Positions 44,587 to 49,508 are shown, counted from the stretch's first letter. The stretch: 64,000 nucleotides of DNA from Escherichia coli (GCF_045037415.1 NZ_CP173438.1), one strand, 5' to 3'. A program made the numbers and translations. The notes: generated by a model from the sequence alone, not told the origin.

Positions 44587-45537
44587 TTAGGTTTTAATAA
44601 TATGGGTGCCCGTTTCGCCGCGTAGCGCCGCAGGCAGGCATTCCGGCGTGGTGATAATCACTTCTTTGCCGTCCTGTTCCAGGAACGTCAGGCTGGCGAT
44701 GATTTTTGGCAACATGCTGCCAGGTGGGAAATGCCCTTCCTGCATATAGCGGGTCATGGTGGCAATATCTACGCGATCGAGCGCCTGTTGCTGCGGCTTG
44801 CCAAAGTGGATACAGACTTTTTCGACGCCGGTGGTGATCACCAGAATGTCGGCGTGAATTTCGCGGGCCAGTAGCGCGGTGGAGAGATCTTTGTCGATAA
44901 CCGCGTCCACGCTTTGGTAATCTCCCGCTTCGGTGCGCACCACAGGAATTCCACCGCCGCCCGCGCCAATCACCACAAAGCCTTGTTGGATCAGCGCCTT
45001 AATGGCAGGTGCTTCGACAATACGTTTCGGTTCCGGCGAGGCGACCACGCGGCGATAGCCCCGTCCGGCATCTTCAACAAAACGCCAGTCAGGGTTTGCC
45101 TTTTGTAGTTCGTCACGCTGGCTTTCACTAAAGAATGCGCCGATGGGCTTGGTGGGATGGGCAAAACCCGGATCGTTTTTATCCACTTCCACCTGAGTCA
45201 CCACAGTGACGGCTTTTTTCTCGCCGTGACGCGCCAGTCGGTTGTTCAGCGCCTGCTGGATCAGATAGCCAATGCCACCTTGCGTATCCGCCACACAGTT
45301 CGCCAGCGGCGTTAAGGGCAGCCCTTCGCGCTCGTGGGCAATCTCCGCACGGCGTAAATCCAGCCCGACCTGCGGCCCGTTGCCGTGGGTCAGCACAATG
45401 TCGTAATCGGAAGCCAGCATTTCCAGCACCGTATCGGCCACGGCTTTCACCGCCTCCGCCTGATGCTCAATCGACTGGCTGGCGTTATCTTTGATAATGC
45501 TGTTGCCACCAATGGCAACGACCACAAGTTCTTTCAT
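44587..45537 (-). CDS. yahI: YahI, carbamate kinase-like protein (316 aa)
   Basis: MKELVVVAIGGNSIIKDN... amino-acid-kinase fold. Confidence 0.9.
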   Translation of the reverse strand: MKELVVVAIGGNSIIKDNASQSIEHQAEAVKAVADTVLEMLASDYDIVLTHGNGPQVGLDLRRAEIAHEREGLPLTPLANCVADTQGGIGYLIQQALNNRLARHGEKKAVTVVTQVEVDKNDPGFAHPTKPIGAFFSESQRDELQKANPDWRFVEDAGRGYRRVVASPEPKRIVEAPAIKALIQQGFVVIGAGGGGIPVVRTEAGDYQSVDAVIDKDLSTALLAREIHADILVITTGVEKVCIHFGKPQQQALDRVDIATMTRYMQEGHFPPGSMLPKIIASLTFLEQDGKEVIITTPECLPAALRGETGTHIIKT

Positions 45538-45574
45538 GTTGTTATGTCCGCGACAGAGGGTGATGGGGTTATGA

Positions 45575-45665
45575 CCAACGCCAGACTGCCTGATGCGCTA
45601 CGCTTATCAGGCCTACAATTCTCGTGCCACTCGTAGGCCGGATAAGGCGTTCACGCCGCATCCGG
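45575..45665. repeat. REP/BIME elements between yahI and yahG
   Basis: GCCTGATGCGCTACGCTTATCAGGCCTAC ... GTAGGCCGGATAAGGCGTTCACGCCGCATCCGGCAG. Confidence 0.7.
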
Positions 45666-47108: not shown

Positions 47109-48655
47109 CAGGCTTCCTCCCCTTTGCAGATAAATTCACGCGCCAGCAATCCGGTATTGGTGCTGCTGCTCGCCAGAATCACTCCGGCATCAAGCAGCAT
47201 CTGGCTTTGTTGTTCTAATGATGGCGTATCGAGATCGGTGCCCAGCACATAGGCGAGAATGATCAACTCGCGTCCTTCGGCAGCGGCGATCGCTTTCGCT
47301 TCTTTGATCGCCTCGATGGTGGAACCGACCGGATCTTCATGCGATCCAAATCCGAGCACAAAATCCATCACGATCACCGCCACTTCTGGATCGCGCGCTT
47401 CTTCGATCAAGCGGCTGATACGGTTGGTCGGGTCAATCATTGGATGCGGCTTGCCGTTGGTGAAGTCATCATCGCCAAAGTCGAGGAAGGTGTGTTTGAT
47501 GCTGCGGTTGATATCTTGCAGGCGGAATTCAGGATCGGGCTGGATATTGCTGTAGACATCGCCATGTTTTTCCATCACCGCGAACAGGGTTTCGTCACAC
47601 AGCGTACCGCCGCAGAACAGACCACGAATGTATTTCTGCTGCGGTTGCAGACGCGCGCGCACATCCGCAATCAACGGCTGGTCAAGCGTATGCAGATCGA
47701 GATGTTCTTGTTTCACGCCGGAGAGCATCACCGCTTTCAATGCCGCCTCTTTGCTGCCGCGAGCAAACTGTAGCCCCTGCTCATCCACTGGCGTTTCGCC
47801 ACGACCGAGGAAGCAGGCCACCACTGGCTTGCGGCAGGCGCGTGCGCGTTCCAGCACTTTGCGGGCCACCGCAGGCGCAGGCGGTTTGGAGATAAGCACA
47901 ATGATTTCAGTTTGCGGATCGTTTTCCAGCATGCTGATGGCATCGAGCATCATCAGTCCGCCGATTTTCTCGCTCAGGTCGCGCCCGCCGGTGCCGATCA
48001 GTTGTGAAACGCCGCCACCAAATTCATGGATACGGACGCTCAATTCCTGGCTGCCGGTGCCAGATGCGCCAACAATACCGATGTTGCCGCGACGCACGGC
48101 GTTACCAAAGCAGAGCGCCGCGCCGTTGATAATCGCCGTGCCGCAGTCTGGCCCCATCATCAGCAGCCCTTTTTCATGGGCCAACTGTTTGAGCGCCAGT
48201 TCATCTTCAACTGAGACATTATCGGAAAACAGCATCACGTTGAGGTCATTTTGCAGCGCCTGACGCGCTTCGCGAGCGGCAAACAGACCGTTGACCGAAA
48301 TCACTGCCAGGTTACTTTCCGGGATATGCTTTTTGGCGCTGGCAATAGTGCCGTAACGCGCCTCGTGCGAGCCGCTTTGCGCTTTGGTGTTGAACAGTTC
48401 TTCAATCTCCGCCAGCAACTGCTCGTTGTCCACACCCGATTTACCATTGATGACAATCATCAGGTCGCCGTTTTTCGCCTGCTCCAGCTCCGGCGTCAGC
48501 AGTCCTAAATTCTTCAACACGCCTTTGTTCATTTCGGTCGCCATCGCCACAAATGCCTGCTCGACGCCGTCGAGTTTATTTGCACGCGTGGAGATAGACA
48601 TCAGCGAGACAGAATCAAAATAGGTATTCGGTTTAATGACTATTTTAACTGACAT
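47108..48655 (-). CDS. yahF: YahF, FdrA-like CoA-binding / succinyl-CoA-synthetase-alpha-like protein (515 aa)
   Basis: Recognised sequence; start overlaps yahE stop by 11 nt. Confidence 0.9.
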   Translation of the reverse strand: MSVKIVIKPNTYFDSVSLMSISTRANKLDGVEQAFVAMATEMNKGVLKNLGLLTPELEQAKNGDLMIVINGKSGVDNEQLLAEIEELFNTKAQSGSHEARYGTIASAKKHIPESNLAVISVNGLFAAREARQALQNDLNVMLFSDNVSVEDELALKQLAHEKGLLMMGPDCGTAIINGAALCFGNAVRRGNIGIVGASGTGSQELSVRIHEFGGGVSQLIGTGGRDLSEKIGGLMMLDAISMLENDPQTEIIVLISKPPAPAVARKVLERARACRKPVVACFLGRGETPVDEQGLQFARGSKEAALKAVMLSGVKQEHLDLHTLDQPLIADVRARLQPQQKYIRGLFCGGTLCDETLFAVMEKHGDVYSNIQPDPEFRLQDINRSIKHTFLDFGDDDFTNGKPHPMIDPTNRISRLIEEARDPEVAVIVMDFVLGFGSHEDPVGSTIEAIKEAKAIAAAEGRELIILAYVLGTDLDTPSLEQQSQMLLDAGVILASSSTNTGLLAREFICKGEEA

Positions 48656-49508
48656 AATTCCCTCCGTAGGTTTGACTCAGCGCACAACCATCGGCCATGC
48701 CATACAGCATGTCGCAGCCGGAACTGGAGCCAATATGTTTAATTTTTTCTATTGCCTGAGTTGCGTTCCCAGGGATGTCATAAATAATGTTGTGAATAAA
48801 ACGATGAATATTTTCCCGGCAGCGTTGTTGTAATGCGGCTTCCAGCGTGATGGCACTTAATAACGTGGTATTATTTCTGCCGCGTTGCAGGCCGAGATAA
48901 AATTCCTCTTTGTATTTTTCCGCCGGATGTCCGGAAATAAATAAAATAAGTACCAGTCCGGTCAGATAATCATCGGCTGATGGCGTAAGGCCAATCCCTA
49001 ACCCCATCATACTGGCGACTGCTGAGGCGATATTTTGTTTATCGTTTACGGCCTGAATAACTGCCCGTCGTTTAATATGTAGTTCTTTATTTAACGCCTG
49101 ATAAAACGGATTATCGCCGCGATAATTAAACAGGGTTTCATTTTCCCCCAGGTGCTGATGAATAATGTCGTACCACTGTTGCCAGGCGATAAGGTGAAAA
49201 TTCACAGCGGTCATTTGCAAGGTTGGGGACAGCCAACGCTGGCAATGACTCATCTCTATATGATGATGTTGACCAATCGTAATGCCTTGATCGTCAAACT
49301 GAACCTTATCATCATGCCGGAACAGACCATTAAAGTGAGTGAGTGCCAACCGACAACTGTTAGGCGCATTGTCGTACTCTTCACAAAGCAGCGTCAGCAA
49401 CTGCTGGCGAGCCGGGAGTGCGATATTTACCGCTCTGGCAAAGACCTGTTCAACCTGTCCTTGCCCCCGCTGCGCCAGAAAATCAGCATCCGCAGTTAGC
49501 GCCCACAC
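48645..49508 (-). CDS. yahE: YahE, DUF2877 protein (287 aa)
   Basis: Recognised sequence; operon partner of yahF and yahG. Confidence 0.9.
   Translation of the reverse strand: MWALTADADFLAQRGQGQVEQVFARAVNIALPARQQLLTLLCEEYDNAPNSCRLALTHFNGLFRHDDKVQFDDQGITIGQHHHIEMSHCQRWLSPTLQMTAVNFHLIAWQQWYDIIHQHLGENETLFNYRGDNPFYQALNKELHIKRRAVIQAVNDKQNIASAVASMMGLGIGLTPSADDYLTGLVLILFISGHPAEKYKEEFYLGLQRGRNNTTLLSAITLEAALQQRCRENIHRFIHNIIYDIPGNATQAIEKIKHIGSSSGCDMLYGMADGCALSQTYGGNYVS

What the first reader, a model, noticed from the sequence alone, without database searches (positions are those of the whole stretch)
44587..49508. yahE-yahF-yahG with yahI: paralogue of the FdrA/YlbE/YlbF plus carbamate-kinase module, a putative carbamoyl-phosphate-yielding catabolic pathway
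YahF (FdrA-like CoA-binding protein), YahG (DUF1116) and YahE (DUF2877) are translationally coupled (1-nt and 11-nt overlaps) and are followed by a carbamate-kinase-like gene (yahI) and an amidohydrolase (yahJ). The same domain trio plus carbamate kinase occurs next to the allantoin genes, where it has been proposed to act as an oxamate-type carbamoyltransferase feeding carbamate kinase for ATP. By analogy this cluster may catabolise an unidentified carbamoylated or ureido compound. The substrate is unknown, and the LysR-type yahB nearby is a candidate regulator.
Basis: inference. Interest (0 to 1): 0.6.

Follow-up and report, generated by a model that had tools for sequence, protein, structure and literature searches.

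The report
Second carbamoyl-phosphate ATP-yielding operon, substrate unknown
This E. coli operon (yahDEFG-yahIJ) is a real, well-conserved sister of the recently proven oxalurate-splitting enzyme plus carbamate kinase. It probably gains ATP and ammonia from a still unidentified nucleobase-like nitrogen compound.

Summary
**Observation:** confirmed. The window is E. coli chromosome. yahE, yahF, yahG and yahI lie at the stated coordinates on the minus strand, with the stated 11-nt and 1-nt overlaps.

**Paralogy with the allantoin-cluster genes:**
- YahF is 39% identical to AllF/FdrA.
- YahG is 45% identical to AllG/YlbE.
- YahE is 24% identical to AllH/YlbF.
- YahI is 38% identical to AllK/YbcF.
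- The regulator YahB is 39% identical to AllS.

**Status of the analogy:** AllFGH is no longer just proposed. It was purified in 2024 and shown to be oxamic transcarbamylase.

**What 90+ loci from other bacteria add:**
- The conserved unit is LysR/PucR regulator | ankyrin (YahD)-YahE-YahF-YahG-nucleobase-type permease-carbamate kinase, usually followed by a deaminase.
- YahG is 76-78% identical between Firmicutes and Proteobacteria, so Yah is a distinct orthologue group.
- E. coli has lost the dedicated permease gene. A REP pair sits in its place and yahC sits upstream.
- YahJ is a Tat-exported enzyme related to AtzC and cytosine deaminase.
- yahK is not part of the unit.

**Most likely function:** an amino-heterocycle is deaminated, an N-acylurea-type intermediate is cleaved with phosphate to carbamoyl phosphate, and YahI makes ATP.

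**Limits:** the substrate is not identified, and no paper found assigns a function. Public annotation already shows the paralogy, so interest is moderate.

The parts
51000..51932 (+). yahB, a LysR-type regulator and paralogue of AllS; candidate activator of the yahD operon
   Evidence: Its best NCBIfam match is AllS at 268 bits, below the equivalog cut-off of 372; PunR follows at 239 bits. BLASTP against K-12 AllS gives 39% identity, E 6e-73. It is divergently syntenic with yahD in nearly all 80 loci. dN/dS against K-12 is 0.027.
50411..50908 (+). yahC, a small polytopic membrane protein (DUF1097); possible substitute for the lost permease
   Evidence: PF06496 is recorded for the orthologue in L002. 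yahC is present only in loci that lack the 517-aa permease, and the reverse also holds. A DUF1097 gene also precedes preTA-hydA (pyrimidine catabolism) in Anaerostipes hadrus (PMC11036815). The transport role is inference.
50260..50274 (-). TTGAACATCATTCAA dyad (T-N11-A type), a candidate YahB operator 121 nt upstream of the yahD start
   Evidence: TT(G/A)AA-N5-TTCAA occurs with at most 1 mismatch at about -115 to -130 in 67 of 85 loci. Composition-matched shuffles reach this in 25 of 1700 cases. Binding was not tested.
49548..50153 (-). yahD, an ankyrin-repeat protein (201 aa, no signal peptide); first gene of the conserved operon
   Evidence: Only ankyrin-repeat matches were found. An ankyrin gene directly precedes the AllH-like gene in Enterobacterales, Aeromonas, Janthinobacterium and Brevibacillus. 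The allFGHK operon has none. The closest solved bacterial relatives, 5d66 and 3hra, are uncharacterized.
48645..49508 (-). yahE, AllH-like subunit (formerly DUF2877)
47108..48655 (-). yahF, AllF/FdrA-like subunit related to the alpha subunit of succinyl-CoA synthetase
   Evidence: 39% identical to AllF. FdrA subfamily score is 493 bits against a 433-bit cut-off. PDB 3dmy (FdrA) matches at E 4e-83. The motifs GPDCG, G-x-IG-x-V-G-A-SGT and G-T-GG align with SucD.
45690..47108 (-). yahG, AllG-like subunit (formerly DUF1116)
   Evidence: 45% identical to AllG. PF06545 matches at E 6e-89. It is 76-78% identical to orthologues in Brevibacillus and Janthinobacterium. About 73% of aligned positions match solved chain 3clq, which is uncharacterized (counted from the printed alignment). 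Residues 12-53 are homologous to the C-terminus of AllF.
45538..45689 (.). REP/BIME spacer between yahG and yahI, at the position where most other genera carry the permease gene
   Evidence: Two inverted REP copies are present. The 34-mer occurs three times in the window against 0 expected by chance. There is a sub-threshold naRNA4 (REP-derived) hit. The spacer is 421 bp in K-12, where it is annotated as phantom gene yahH (PMC11551758).
44587..45537 (-). yahI, carbamate kinase family protein
   Evidence: NF009007 scores 648 bits against a 266-bit cut-off. The arcC equivalog TIGR00746 scores 347.3, just under its 358.25 cut-off. It is 38% identical to AllK.
43195..44577 (-). yahJ, a Tat-exported metal-dependent amidohydrolase of the AtzC/cytosine-deaminase type
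   Evidence: NF005312 scores 716 bits, aligned from residue 49. The nearest PDB entries are AtzC-type: 6nbo at 3e-44 and 2qt3/4cqb at 1e-31. Cytosine deaminase comes at 1e-17 to 1e-20. The SRREFL...AHA signal is conserved in 73 of 73 orthologues. It is listed as a Tat substrate of unknown function (PMC7549933). The catalytic motifs align with the window's own codA.

Best explanation
yahDEFG-yahIJ, together with the divergent yahC-yahB pair, encodes a second AllFGHK-type energy-conserving catabolic module.

**Proposed steps**
1. YahJ is exported by the Tat pathway. In the periplasm it removes an amino or alkylamino group from an N-heterocycle resembling a triazine, pyrimidine or purine.
2. The oxo product is taken up. 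Most genera use a dedicated AzgA-like 517-aa permease. E. coli has lost that gene and presumably uses YahC or another permease.
3. YahF and YahG, helped by YahE and probably the ankyrin protein YahD, cleave an N-acylurea (R-CO-NH-CO-NH2-type) bond with phosphate. This gives an amide plus carbamoyl phosphate, as AllFGH does with oxalurate.
4. YahI transfers the phosphate to ADP, giving ATP plus carbamate, which breaks down to NH3 and CO2.
5. YahB, the AllS paralogue, switches the operon on in response to the substrate or an intermediate.

**Shown here:** homology of all five proteins to the All set; the conserved operon architecture; the Tat signal; intact genes under purifying selection.

**Inferred:** the chemistry of every step, the role of YahD, the role of YahC, and the identity of the substrate.

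The substrate is probably not oxalurate from allantoin.
For: **Five-fold paralogy with a system whose biochemistry is published.** The alignments are. The biochemistry is in PMC11326118, PMC9843812 and PMC12535856.

**Family membership.** Pfam and NCBIfam place the proteins in the AllF, AllG, AllH and carbamate-kinase families.

**Operon structure.** The gaps are 39 bp (yahD-yahE), -11 bp, -1 bp, 152 bp (REP) and 9 bp (yahI-yahJ), from the coordinates.

**Conserved gene set.** The same set recurs in different chromosomal places in about 80 Enterobacterales and Aeromonas genomes, and in Janthinobacterium and Brevibacillus.

**Accessory genes point to nucleobase-like substrates.**
- The 517-aa permease is named xanthine or AzgA-type permease by several sources.
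- Brevibacillus has an NCS1 permease closest to allantoin permease.
- Firmicutes use a PucR-type regulator.
- Two unrelated deaminase folds occupy the same slot: AtzC/CodA-like YahJ and a GuaD-like CDA-fold enzyme.

**YahJ looks catalytically competent.** It keeps the residues that align with CodA's metal-binding and catalytic motifs.

**Sister subfamilies sit beside ring-processing enzymes.**
- AtzD/barbiturase-type ring-opening amidohydrolase
- Isochorismatase/RutB-like hydrolases with UPRTase (PMC12928451)
- Biuret hydrolase in nitrifiers (PMC12625717)

**The genes are maintained.** dN/dS against K-12 is 0.02-0.19 for every gene, and yahFG is present in 5039 of 5426 complete E. coli genomes.
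Against: - No biochemical or genetic datum exists for any yah gene except a mild fitness defect of a yahJ deletion in an ExPEC strain.
- A 2024 review of uncharacterized E. coli genes lists yahC, E, G, I and J among a dense cluster of uncharacterized genes.
- No Yah-type operon seen here encodes a ring-opening hydrolase. How a heterocycle would become a linear acylurea is unexplained.
- E. coli lacks the dedicated permease.
- YahE is missing from the operon in Enterobacter, Leclercia and Lelliottia. The three-subunit analogy is therefore not strict.
- YahI falls just below the arcC equivalog cut-off.
- The minimal operons of Aeromonas allosaccharophila and Janthinobacterium have no deaminase, so step 1 is optional.
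Confidence: 0.6

Rival explanations
1. YahEFG is simply a second oxamate carbamoyltransferase acting on oxalurate. It would be a redundant isozyme of AllFGH expressed under other conditions.
For: The subunit families are the same, with 39-45% identity for the large subunits. The regulator is an AllS paralogue. A triple allFGH deletion complemented with only allFG or allGH still made 7% and 16% of wild-type oxamate. That could mean YahE or YahF can stand in for a missing subunit, but this is speculative.
Against: Single allF or allG deletions and the triple deletion give zero oxamate. K-12 carries an intact yah cluster. The paper never mentions the yah genes, and the strain background of these mutants was not checked here. 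YahG is 76-78% identical across phyla but only 45% identical to AllG in the same cell, the pattern of a separate orthologue group. The conserved partners (ankyrin, nucleobase-type permease, deaminase) have no role in oxalurate use. No allantoin genes lie next to any Yah-type operon.
Confidence: 0.12
2. In E. coli the cluster is a cryptic remnant. Having lost its permease, it no longer supports any catabolic pathway.
For: The 517-aa permease gene present in most genera is replaced by a REP pair. No phenotype is known. The genes remain listed as uncharacterized. 142 of 5426 E. coli genomes carry an extra mobile copy that does include the permease.
Against: All genes are intact, with dN/dS of 0.02-0.19 between two E. 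coli lineages. 93% of complete genomes keep yahFG. The permease-less, yahC-containing layout is shared by Escherichia, Kluyvera, Klebsiella, Raoultella and Pseudocitrobacter, so it is old and stable. A yahJ deletion has a small in-vivo fitness cost.
Confidence: 0.1
3. YahF/YahG is an NDP-forming acyl-CoA synthetase-like enzyme, as the RefSeq name 'acyl-CoA synthetase FdrA' implies. The carbamate kinase would then be functionally unrelated.
For: YahF has CoA_binding and Ligase_CoA domains. It aligns with the succinyl-CoA synthetase alpha subunit at E 1e-18 to 1e-20.
Against: Purified AllFGH catalyses transcarbamoylation. The kinetics are reported for carbamoyl phosphate and oxamate only. Whether CoA was tested was not checked here. 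A carbamate kinase gene is linked to the module in the All, Yah, GR29 and L094 subfamilies. No ATP-grasp beta subunit is encoded nearby.
Confidence: 0.05
4. The module runs in the synthetic direction. YahI makes carbamoyl phosphate, and YahEFG carbamoylates an imported amide or heterocycle, for example to detoxify or modify it.
For: The AllFGH assay was run in the carbamoylating direction (carbamoyl phosphate plus oxamate), and the reaction is reversible.
Against: The context is catabolic: a permease, deaminases, and substrate-type regulators of the AllS and PucR kind. Both characterized partners, AllFGH and AllK, work catabolically in vivo. No biosynthetic genes are conserved nearby.
Confidence: 0.05

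Closest known systems
AllFGH oxamic transcarbamylase plus AllK carbamate kinase of E. coli (allFGHK operon, activated by AllS); PMC11326118, PMC9843812, PMC12535856
   Same: Both have the same three subunit families (AllF/FdrA, AllG, AllH), a linked carbamate kinase and a paralogous LysR activator. Identity is 24-45%. In both, the genes are tightly packed in one operon.
   Different: - Gene order is E-F-G-I in yah and F-G-H-K in all.
- The boundary between the F and G subunits is shifted by about 45 residues.
- A conserved ankyrin gene leads the yah operon and is absent from all.
- The yah context is a nucleobase-type permease plus a deaminase, not allantoin enzymes.
- YahE is dispensable in some lineages.
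- The yah cluster does not replace all in published allantoin fermentations.
- The yah substrate is unknown.
Isochorismatase-linked FdrA/DUF1116/carbamate-kinase island of ExPEC/APEC strains (tkt1 island, 'GR29'); PMC3349570, PMC12928451
   Same: It is a third paralogous set in the E. coli pan-genome, with the same core plus a carbamate kinase and a nucleobase-type (CodB-like) permease.
   Different: Its front-end enzyme is a RutB/PncA-like isochorismatase hydrolase rather than an AtzC-like deaminase. It has no ankyrin gene. Its DUF1116 protein is only about 46% identical to YahG. It is strain-specific, whereas yah is near-core.
AtzC (N-isopropylammelide isopropylaminohydrolase) and CodA (cytosine deaminase), amidohydrolase superfamily
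   Same: YahJ is closest to AtzC-type structures (E 3e-44 to 1e-31) and next to cytosine deaminases. The HxH, Q, H..E, H and D motifs align with CodA.
   Different: YahJ has a conserved twin-arginine signal and so works in the periplasm. It scores far below the cytosine-deaminase cut-offs (104 against 438 bits). CodA Asp314 is Ser363 in YahJ (residue numbering from memory). E. coli already has codA about 13 kb away in this window.
Arginine deiminase-type pathways (catabolic transcarbamylase plus carbamate kinase)
   Same: The logic is the same: a ureido or carbamoyl group is transferred to phosphate, and carbamate kinase then makes ATP. This is established knowledge.
   Different: The transcarbamylase here belongs to a family unrelated to the ATCase/OTCase family (PMC11326118).

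Membership tests
AllFGH-type (FdrA/AllG/AllH) carbamoyltransferase | AllF/FdrA-like subunit (HMA_AllF_N, CoA_binding and Ligase_CoA domains) | tested here: met
   NCBIfam NF004760 scores 493 bits against a 433-bit cut-off. The Pfam domains are present. Identity to AllF is 39%.
AllFGH-type (FdrA/AllG/AllH) carbamoyltransferase | AllG subunit (PF06545) | tested here: met
   PF06545 matches at E 6e-89. Identity to AllG is 45%.
AllFGH-type (FdrA/AllG/AllH) carbamoyltransferase | AllH subunit (PF11392) | tested here: met
   PF11392 matches at E 2e-28. Identity to AllH is 24%, E 3e-10. The invariant motif G-x-G-x-GLTP-x-x-DD is shared.
AllFGH-type (FdrA/AllG/AllH) carbamoyltransferase | Genes co-transcribed with a carbamate kinase gene | tested here: met
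   yahI follows yahG after a 152-bp REP spacer on the same strand. The linkage is conserved in all loci that extend far enough to show it. Co-transcription itself was not measured.
AllFGH-type (FdrA/AllG/AllH) carbamoyltransferase | Catalyses oxalurate + Pi <-> oxamate + carbamoyl phosphate | not testable with these tools
   Indirect evidence is against the same substrate. allF or allG deletion strains make no oxamate, and the conserved gene context is different.
AllFGH-type (FdrA/AllG/AllH) carbamoyltransferase | Control by an AllS-type LysR activator | tested here: inconclusive
   YahB is 39% identical to AllS but below the AllS equivalog cut-off (268 against 372 bits). A conserved dyad lies upstream of yahD. 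Binding and activation were not tested.
Carbamate kinase (ArcC) | Score above the family model cut-off | tested here: met
   Subfamily NF009007 scores 648 bits against a 266-bit cut-off, so it passes. Equivalog TIGR00746 scores 347.3 against 358.25, so it narrowly fails. YahI is therefore a family member but not certified as functionally equivalent.
Cytosine deaminase (CodA) | Score above the cytosine-deaminase model cut-offs | tested here: not met
   The three models score 104 against 438, 83 against 483 and 72 against 403 bits. YahJ is a relative, not a cytosine deaminase by these models.
Cytosine deaminase/AtzC-type amidohydrolases | Metal-binding and catalytic residues (HxH, His, Asp, catalytic Glu and His) | tested here: met
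   H121/H123, Q219, H275/E278, H308 and D362 align with the corresponding motifs of the window's codA. Assigning these to CodA His61/63, Gln156, His214/Glu217, His246 and Asp313 rests on my own knowledge.
Tat-exported proteins | Twin-arginine motif, hydrophobic stretch and AxA cleavage site at the N-terminus | tested here: met
   The N-terminus reads MKENNSRREFLSQSGKMVTAAALFGTSVPLAHA. The RR motif is present in 73 of 73 orthologues. YahJ is listed among Tat substrates (PMC7549933). Export was not measured here.

The most novel reading that the evidence does not exclude
No Yah-type operon from three bacterial classes encodes a ring-opening hydrolase, yet all carry nucleobase-type permeases and most carry ring-amine deaminases. 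The ankyrin-associated YahDEFG enzyme may therefore open a cyclic acylurea directly with phosphate. Candidate rings include a triazine-trione, a hydantoin or a pyrimidine-dione. The product would be an N-substituted carbamoyl phosphate, which the distinct YahI kinase would convert to ATP. This would be a phosphorolytic, ATP-yielding alternative to hydrolytic ring cleavage of N-heterocycles.
Probability: 0.1. Interest if true: 0.85.

Novelty: new variant of a known kind. Interest (0 to 1): 0.5.

Why it matters
- **An uncharacterized near-core operon.** This is one of the denser blocks of uncharacterized genes left in E. coli K-12. It is present in 93% of complete E. coli genomes, and its core is 76-78% identical in Firmicutes.
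- **A small enzyme family.** The AllFGH transcarbamylase family was defined only in 2024 and has one characterized member. A second member with a different substrate would show that the family is a general device for turning N-acylurea bonds into ATP.
- **A concrete search space.** The comparative picture narrows the substrate to nucleobase-like amino-heterocycles and their oxo forms. It also points to better test organisms than K-12, namely species that still carry the permease.
- **Possible relevance in the gut.** Gut Enterobacterales may use such a pathway for purine and pyrimidine oxidation products, triazines or creatinine-like compounds. This last point is speculation.

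Tried and rejected
2. **Riboswitch as a ligand clue.** Rfam scans of the window (41-54 kb) and of seven related loci found only tRNAs and a sub-threshold REP-derived hit.
3. **Promoter and terminator scans.** They gave nothing above chance on the operon strand, as expected for an activator-dependent promoter.
4. **Family assignment of the 517-aa permease.** Pfam, NCBIfam and PDB sequence searches all came back empty. Only source annotations and one cluster with a PF00860 hit link it to the AzgA/NCS2 permeases.
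5. **Literature.** No paper found assigns a function to yahD, E, F, G or I. The two 2025 papers on anaerobic urate degradation came up in a search. The one checked by term search, the 2,8-dioxopurine preprint, does not mention yah.
6. **Phosphohistidine in YahF.** Locating the counterpart of the SucD phosphohistidine was unreliable in the MAFFT alignment. I make no claim beyond the conserved SGT and GKPHPMIDP motifs.
7. **yahK as part of the pathway.** Rejected. It follows a 376-bp gap and is not syntenic with the operon outside Escherichia.
8. **The 3066/5426 figure.** This was not a real presence rate. The 7.2-kb query included REPs and variable flanks. The yahFG-only query gives 5039/5426.

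Full report

Yes. The minus strand of the window carries these genes:
- yahE 49508..48645 (287 aa, GTG start)
- yahF 48655..47108 (515 aa)
- yahG 47108..45690 (472 aa)
- yahI 45537..44587 (316 aa)
- yahJ 44577..43195 (460 aa)

The stretch is 100% identical to several E. coli chromosomes in which the genes carry these names.

Domain scans agree with the description:
- YahE has PF11392, E 2e-28.
- YahG has PF06545, E 6e-89.
- YahF has CoA_binding plus Ligase_CoA and scores 493 bits on the NCBIfam FdrA subfamily.
- YahI scores 648 bits on a carbamate-kinase subfamily model.
- YahJ scores 716 bits on an amidohydrolase subfamily model.

Pfam has already renamed the two former DUFs to 'AllH' and 'AllG'. 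Some RefSeq records call yahE an 'oxamate carbamoyltransferase subunit AllH family protein'. The paralogy is therefore visible in public annotation.

**2.

Pairwise BLASTP against the K-12 allantoin-cluster proteins (locus L001) gives:

| Pair | Identity | E-value |
|---|---|---|
| YahF-AllF/FdrA | 39% | 1e-102 |
| YahG-AllG/YlbE | 45% | 4e-119 |
| YahE-AllH/YlbF | 24% | 3e-10 |
| YahI-AllK/YbcF | 38% | 7e-58 |

The refutation condition, no detectable similarity, is not met.

Two further points extend the paralogy.
- The regulator YahB is 39% identical to AllS (E 6e-73). AllS is the activator that binds and switches on the allFGHK promoter (PMC12535856).
- The size differences between the F and G subunits have a simple cause. 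Residues 12-53 of YahG are homologous to the C-terminal tail of AllF (29% identity, E 5e-8). The gene boundary therefore lies about 45 residues apart in the two systems. This fits descent from a fused protein, and fused forms of about 1000 aa are common among the 3351 family clusters found.

**3. What is known about the model system**

It is now demonstrated.
- Kim and Kim (2024, PMC11326118) purified AllF-AllG-AllH. They measured the reaction oxamate + carbamoyl phosphate <-> oxalurate + phosphate, with Km values of 1.3 mM for carbamoyl phosphate and 36.9 mM for oxamate.
- Deleting allF, allG or all three genes abolishes oxamate formation from allantoin.
- AllK/YbcF is the catabolic carbamate kinase (PMC9843812).
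- The 2024 paper never mentions the yah genes.
- Its data show that the chromosomal yah cluster does not replace all under those conditions: oxamate was 0 mM in the allF, allG and allFGH deletion strains.
- The triple mutant complemented with only allFG or allGH still reached 7% and 16% of wild-type oxamate. This could reflect weak substitution by YahE or YahF, which is speculation.

**4. What the operon really comprises**

I mapped reference proteins onto about 90 loci. Eighty came from a scan of one genome per species. The rest came from contig look-ups of individual homologues.

The conserved unit is: regulator (divergent) | ankyrin protein YahD - YahE - YahF - YahG - a 517-aa membrane protein - YahI - YahJ.

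This layout occurs, in different chromosomal neighbourhoods, in the Citrobacter freundii complex, Enterobacter, Leclercia, Serratia, Buttiauxella, Providencia, Proteus, Yokenella, Trabulsiella, Atlantibacter and Aeromonas.

A second layout is found in Escherichia, Pseudocitrobacter, Kluyvera, Citrobacter amalonaticus, Klebsiella and Raoultella.
- It lacks the 517-aa gene.
- It carries yahC, a 165-aa DUF1097 membrane protein, next to yahB.
- yahC and the 517-aa gene are mutually exclusive in every locus. This may trace to a single evolutionary event.

In the window the permease position is occupied by two inverted REP elements.
- The spacer is 45538-45689.
- The 34-mer REP occurs three times in the window, against 0 expected by chance.
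- In K-12 the spacer is 421 bp and is annotated as the phantom gene yahH (PMC11551758).

yahK follows a 376-bp gap and is not syntenic with the operon elsewhere, so it is not part of the unit.

**5. A distinct, deeply conserved orthologue group**

YahG is 76-78% identical to its counterparts in Brevibacillus, Paenibacillus and Janthinobacterium. About 73% of aligned positions match the solved but uncharacterized chain 3clq, counted from the printed alignment. It is only 45% identical to AllG in the same cell. In a library clustered at 50% identity, the full-length Yah-type proteins collapse into one representative. The next full-length relatives are 44-49% identical.

The partners are conserved outside the Enterobacterales as well.
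- Janthinobacterium and Aeromonas allosaccharophila have Ank-E-F-G-permease-kinase with a LysR gene and no deaminase.
- Brevibacillus has PucR | Ank-E-F-G-NCS1 permease-kinase-small deaminase, sometimes followed by the 517-aa permease.
- The Brevibacillus deaminase is a CDA-fold enzyme closest to Bacillus guanine deaminase (E 1.5e-31).
- Its NCS1 permease is closest to allantoin permease, at 435 bits, below the 620-bit cut-off.
- The 517-aa protein has no Pfam, NCBIfam or PDB match. Several sources name it a xanthine, AzgA-type or adenine/guanine/hypoxanthine permease. Two paralogues of it sit in a different AllFG subfamily cluster.

The same slots are thus filled by non-homologous deaminases, alternative nucleobase-type permeases and purine-type regulators. 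That is the main evidence that the substrate is a nucleobase-like N-heterocycle.

**6. YahJ**

YahJ is closer to AtzC-type aminohydrolases (6nbo at 3e-44; 2qt3 and 4cqb at about 1e-31) than to cytosine deaminases (1e-17 to 1e-20). It fails the cytosine-deaminase model cut-offs by a wide margin.

Its catalytic motifs align with those of the window's own codA (29672-30595, minus strand):
- HxH (H121/H123)
- FPQ (Q219)
- H..E (H275/E278)
- SH (H308)
- D362

The position after the metal-binding Asp is Ser instead of Asp. The CodA residue numbers come from my own knowledge.

The N-terminus, MKENNSRREFLSQSGKMVTAAALFGTSVPLAHA, is a twin-arginine signal. The RR motif is present in all 73 orthologues examined. 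YahJ is listed among E. coli Tat substrates with function 'Unknown', and its deletion gave a competitive index of 0.70 in an ExPEC infection model (PMC7549933). YahJ is therefore a periplasmic enzyme acting before uptake.

**7. Regulation**

The 257-bp yahC-yahD intergenic region contains the dyad TTGAACATCATTCAA (50274..50260), 121 nt upstream of the yahD start. The pattern TT(G/A)AA-N5-TTCAA occurs with at most one mismatch at about -115 to -130 in 67 of 85 loci. Shuffled controls reach this in 25 of 1700 cases. This is a typical LysR-type T-N11-A box and a good candidate for the YahB site. Binding is untested. Consensus promoter and terminator scans gave nothing above chance. No riboswitch was found here or in the Gram-positive loci.

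**8. Is the E. coli copy alive?**

Between this strain and K-12 every gene is intact and has the same length. dN/dS values are:

| Gene | dN/dS |
|---|---|
| yahB | 0.027 |
| yahC | 0.094 |
| yahD | 0.073 |
| yahE | 0.19 |
| yahF | 0.076 |
| yahG | 0.019 |
| yahI | 0.033 |
| yahJ | 0.059 |

yahFG is present at 80% coverage or more in 5039 of 5426 complete E. coli genomes. The cluster is maintained by selection even without the dedicated permease.

Two further copies exist in the species.
- A mobile version, about 84% identical at the DNA level to that of C. freundii, includes the permease. It occurs in 142 genomes, mostly on IncF plasmids.
- An isochorismatase-linked set lies in the tkt1 island of ExPEC and APEC strains.

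**9. How it most likely works**

By homology, YahF and YahG, with YahE, should transfer a carbamoyl group from an N-acylurea-type donor to phosphate. YahI should then make ATP.

Several observations support the general logic that this module is the terminal, energy-conserving step for acylureas released from N-heterocycles. Sister subfamilies sit next to:
- a cyanuric-acid-hydrolase/barbiturase-type ring-opening enzyme;
- isochorismatase hydrolases with a UPRTase;
- biuret hydrolase in nitrifiers (PMC12625717).

YahF keeps the motifs that align with the succinyl-CoA synthetase alpha subunit, including the G-x-SGT stretch. Reading this as a phosphate-binding site rests on what I know of that enzyme, not on a test.

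Unexplained points:
- No Yah-type operon encodes a ring-opening hydrolase.
- The role of the conserved ankyrin protein is unknown.
- YahE is missing from the operon in Enterobacter, Leclercia, Lelliottia and relatives. It may be an accessory subunit, which fits the partial activity seen without AllH.
- The confident AF2 model of YahE has no informative structural neighbour.

**10. Comparison with what is known, and novelty**

The cluster passes all sequence-level membership tests for the AllFGH-plus-carbamate-kinase kind. The defining activity could not be tested. Indirect evidence argues against oxalurate as the substrate.

It differs from the only characterized member in these ways:
- gene order
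- subunit boundary
- a conserved ankyrin partner
- a periplasmic deaminase
- a dedicated nucleobase-type permease

I class it as a new variant of a known kind. The paralogy is already embedded in public annotation, so the finding as written is not a discovery. The function is still open: the genes were listed as uncharacterized in 2024, and no paper found assigns one.

**11. Verdict**

- The best explanation has confidence of about 0.6 for the general mechanism. The substrate is unidentified.
- Interest is 0.5. This is a solid, testable lead for assigning a function to an uncharacterized near-core E. coli operon, and the analogy behind it is already public.

Noticed in passing
window 45538-45689; K-12 locus L096 8745-9165: The yahG-yahI spacer consists of REP elements and varies in length between strains: 152 bp here and 421 bp in K-12, where it is annotated as the phantom gene yahH. 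It occupies exactly the position of the 517-aa permease gene in other genera.
   Followed up: yes
L006 (plasmid NZ_CP128971.1 38769-60319): 142 of 5426 complete E. coli genomes carry a second, mobile copy of the cluster: LysR | ankyrin-E-F-G-permease-carbamate kinase. It is mostly on IncF plasmids. In this plasmid it is flanked by IS elements, and yahJ has been cut off by an insertion.
   Followed up: partly
L040-L067 (for example L052 7649-9995); L084: In Enterobacter, Leclercia, Lelliottia, Silvania, Huaxiibacter and Aeromonas cavernicola there is no room for yahE between yahD and yahF. In these lineages the AllH-like subunit has been lost from an otherwise intact operon.
   Followed up: partly
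window 46950-47075 (YahG residues 12-53) against L001 5160-5345 (AllF C-terminus): The N-terminal extension of YahG is homologous to the C-terminal tail of AllF. The F/G gene boundary therefore differs between the paralogues, probably because a fused ancestor split independently in each.
   Followed up: yes
L091 6614-10428: A metagenomic relative (48% identical to YahG) has an AtzD/TrzD-type ring-opening amidohydrolase gene (cyanuric acid hydrolase/barbiturase family) directly upstream of its AllF-like and AllG-like genes. This hints that the family handles acylureas other than oxalurate.
   Followed up: no
L094 1711-10674: Another subfamily cluster reads PucR | permease-isochorismatase-permease-short AllH (126 aa)-AllF-AllG-carbamate kinase-UPRTase. 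Both permeases are 33-37% identical to the 517-aa Yah-linked permease, so this unnamed permease family travels with the module.
   Followed up: partly
L008 6257-6464; L009 5181-5333: In Janthinobacterium and Aeromonas, tRNA genes lie directly next to the Yah-type cluster. This fits acquisition by horizontal transfer, as does the 76-88% identity across classes.
   Followed up: no
window 29672-30595 (minus strand): The canonical cytosine deaminase gene codA lies about 13 kb from yahJ in the same window. YahJ is therefore not the cell's primary cytosine deaminase.
   Followed up: partly
records H1-H3 (for example NZ_OZ547143.1 1968708-1977344): In some E. coli strains an IS3-family element (IS1397) is inserted within the 7.2-kb yahD-yahJ stretch, splitting the match into two pieces.
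   Followed up: no
PMC11326118, Tables 1-3: An allFGH triple deletion complemented with only allFG or allGH still made 7% and 16% of wild-type oxamate, and the allH single mutant made 1.2 mM. The authors do not discuss whether YahE or YahF could supply the missing subunit.
   Followed up: no
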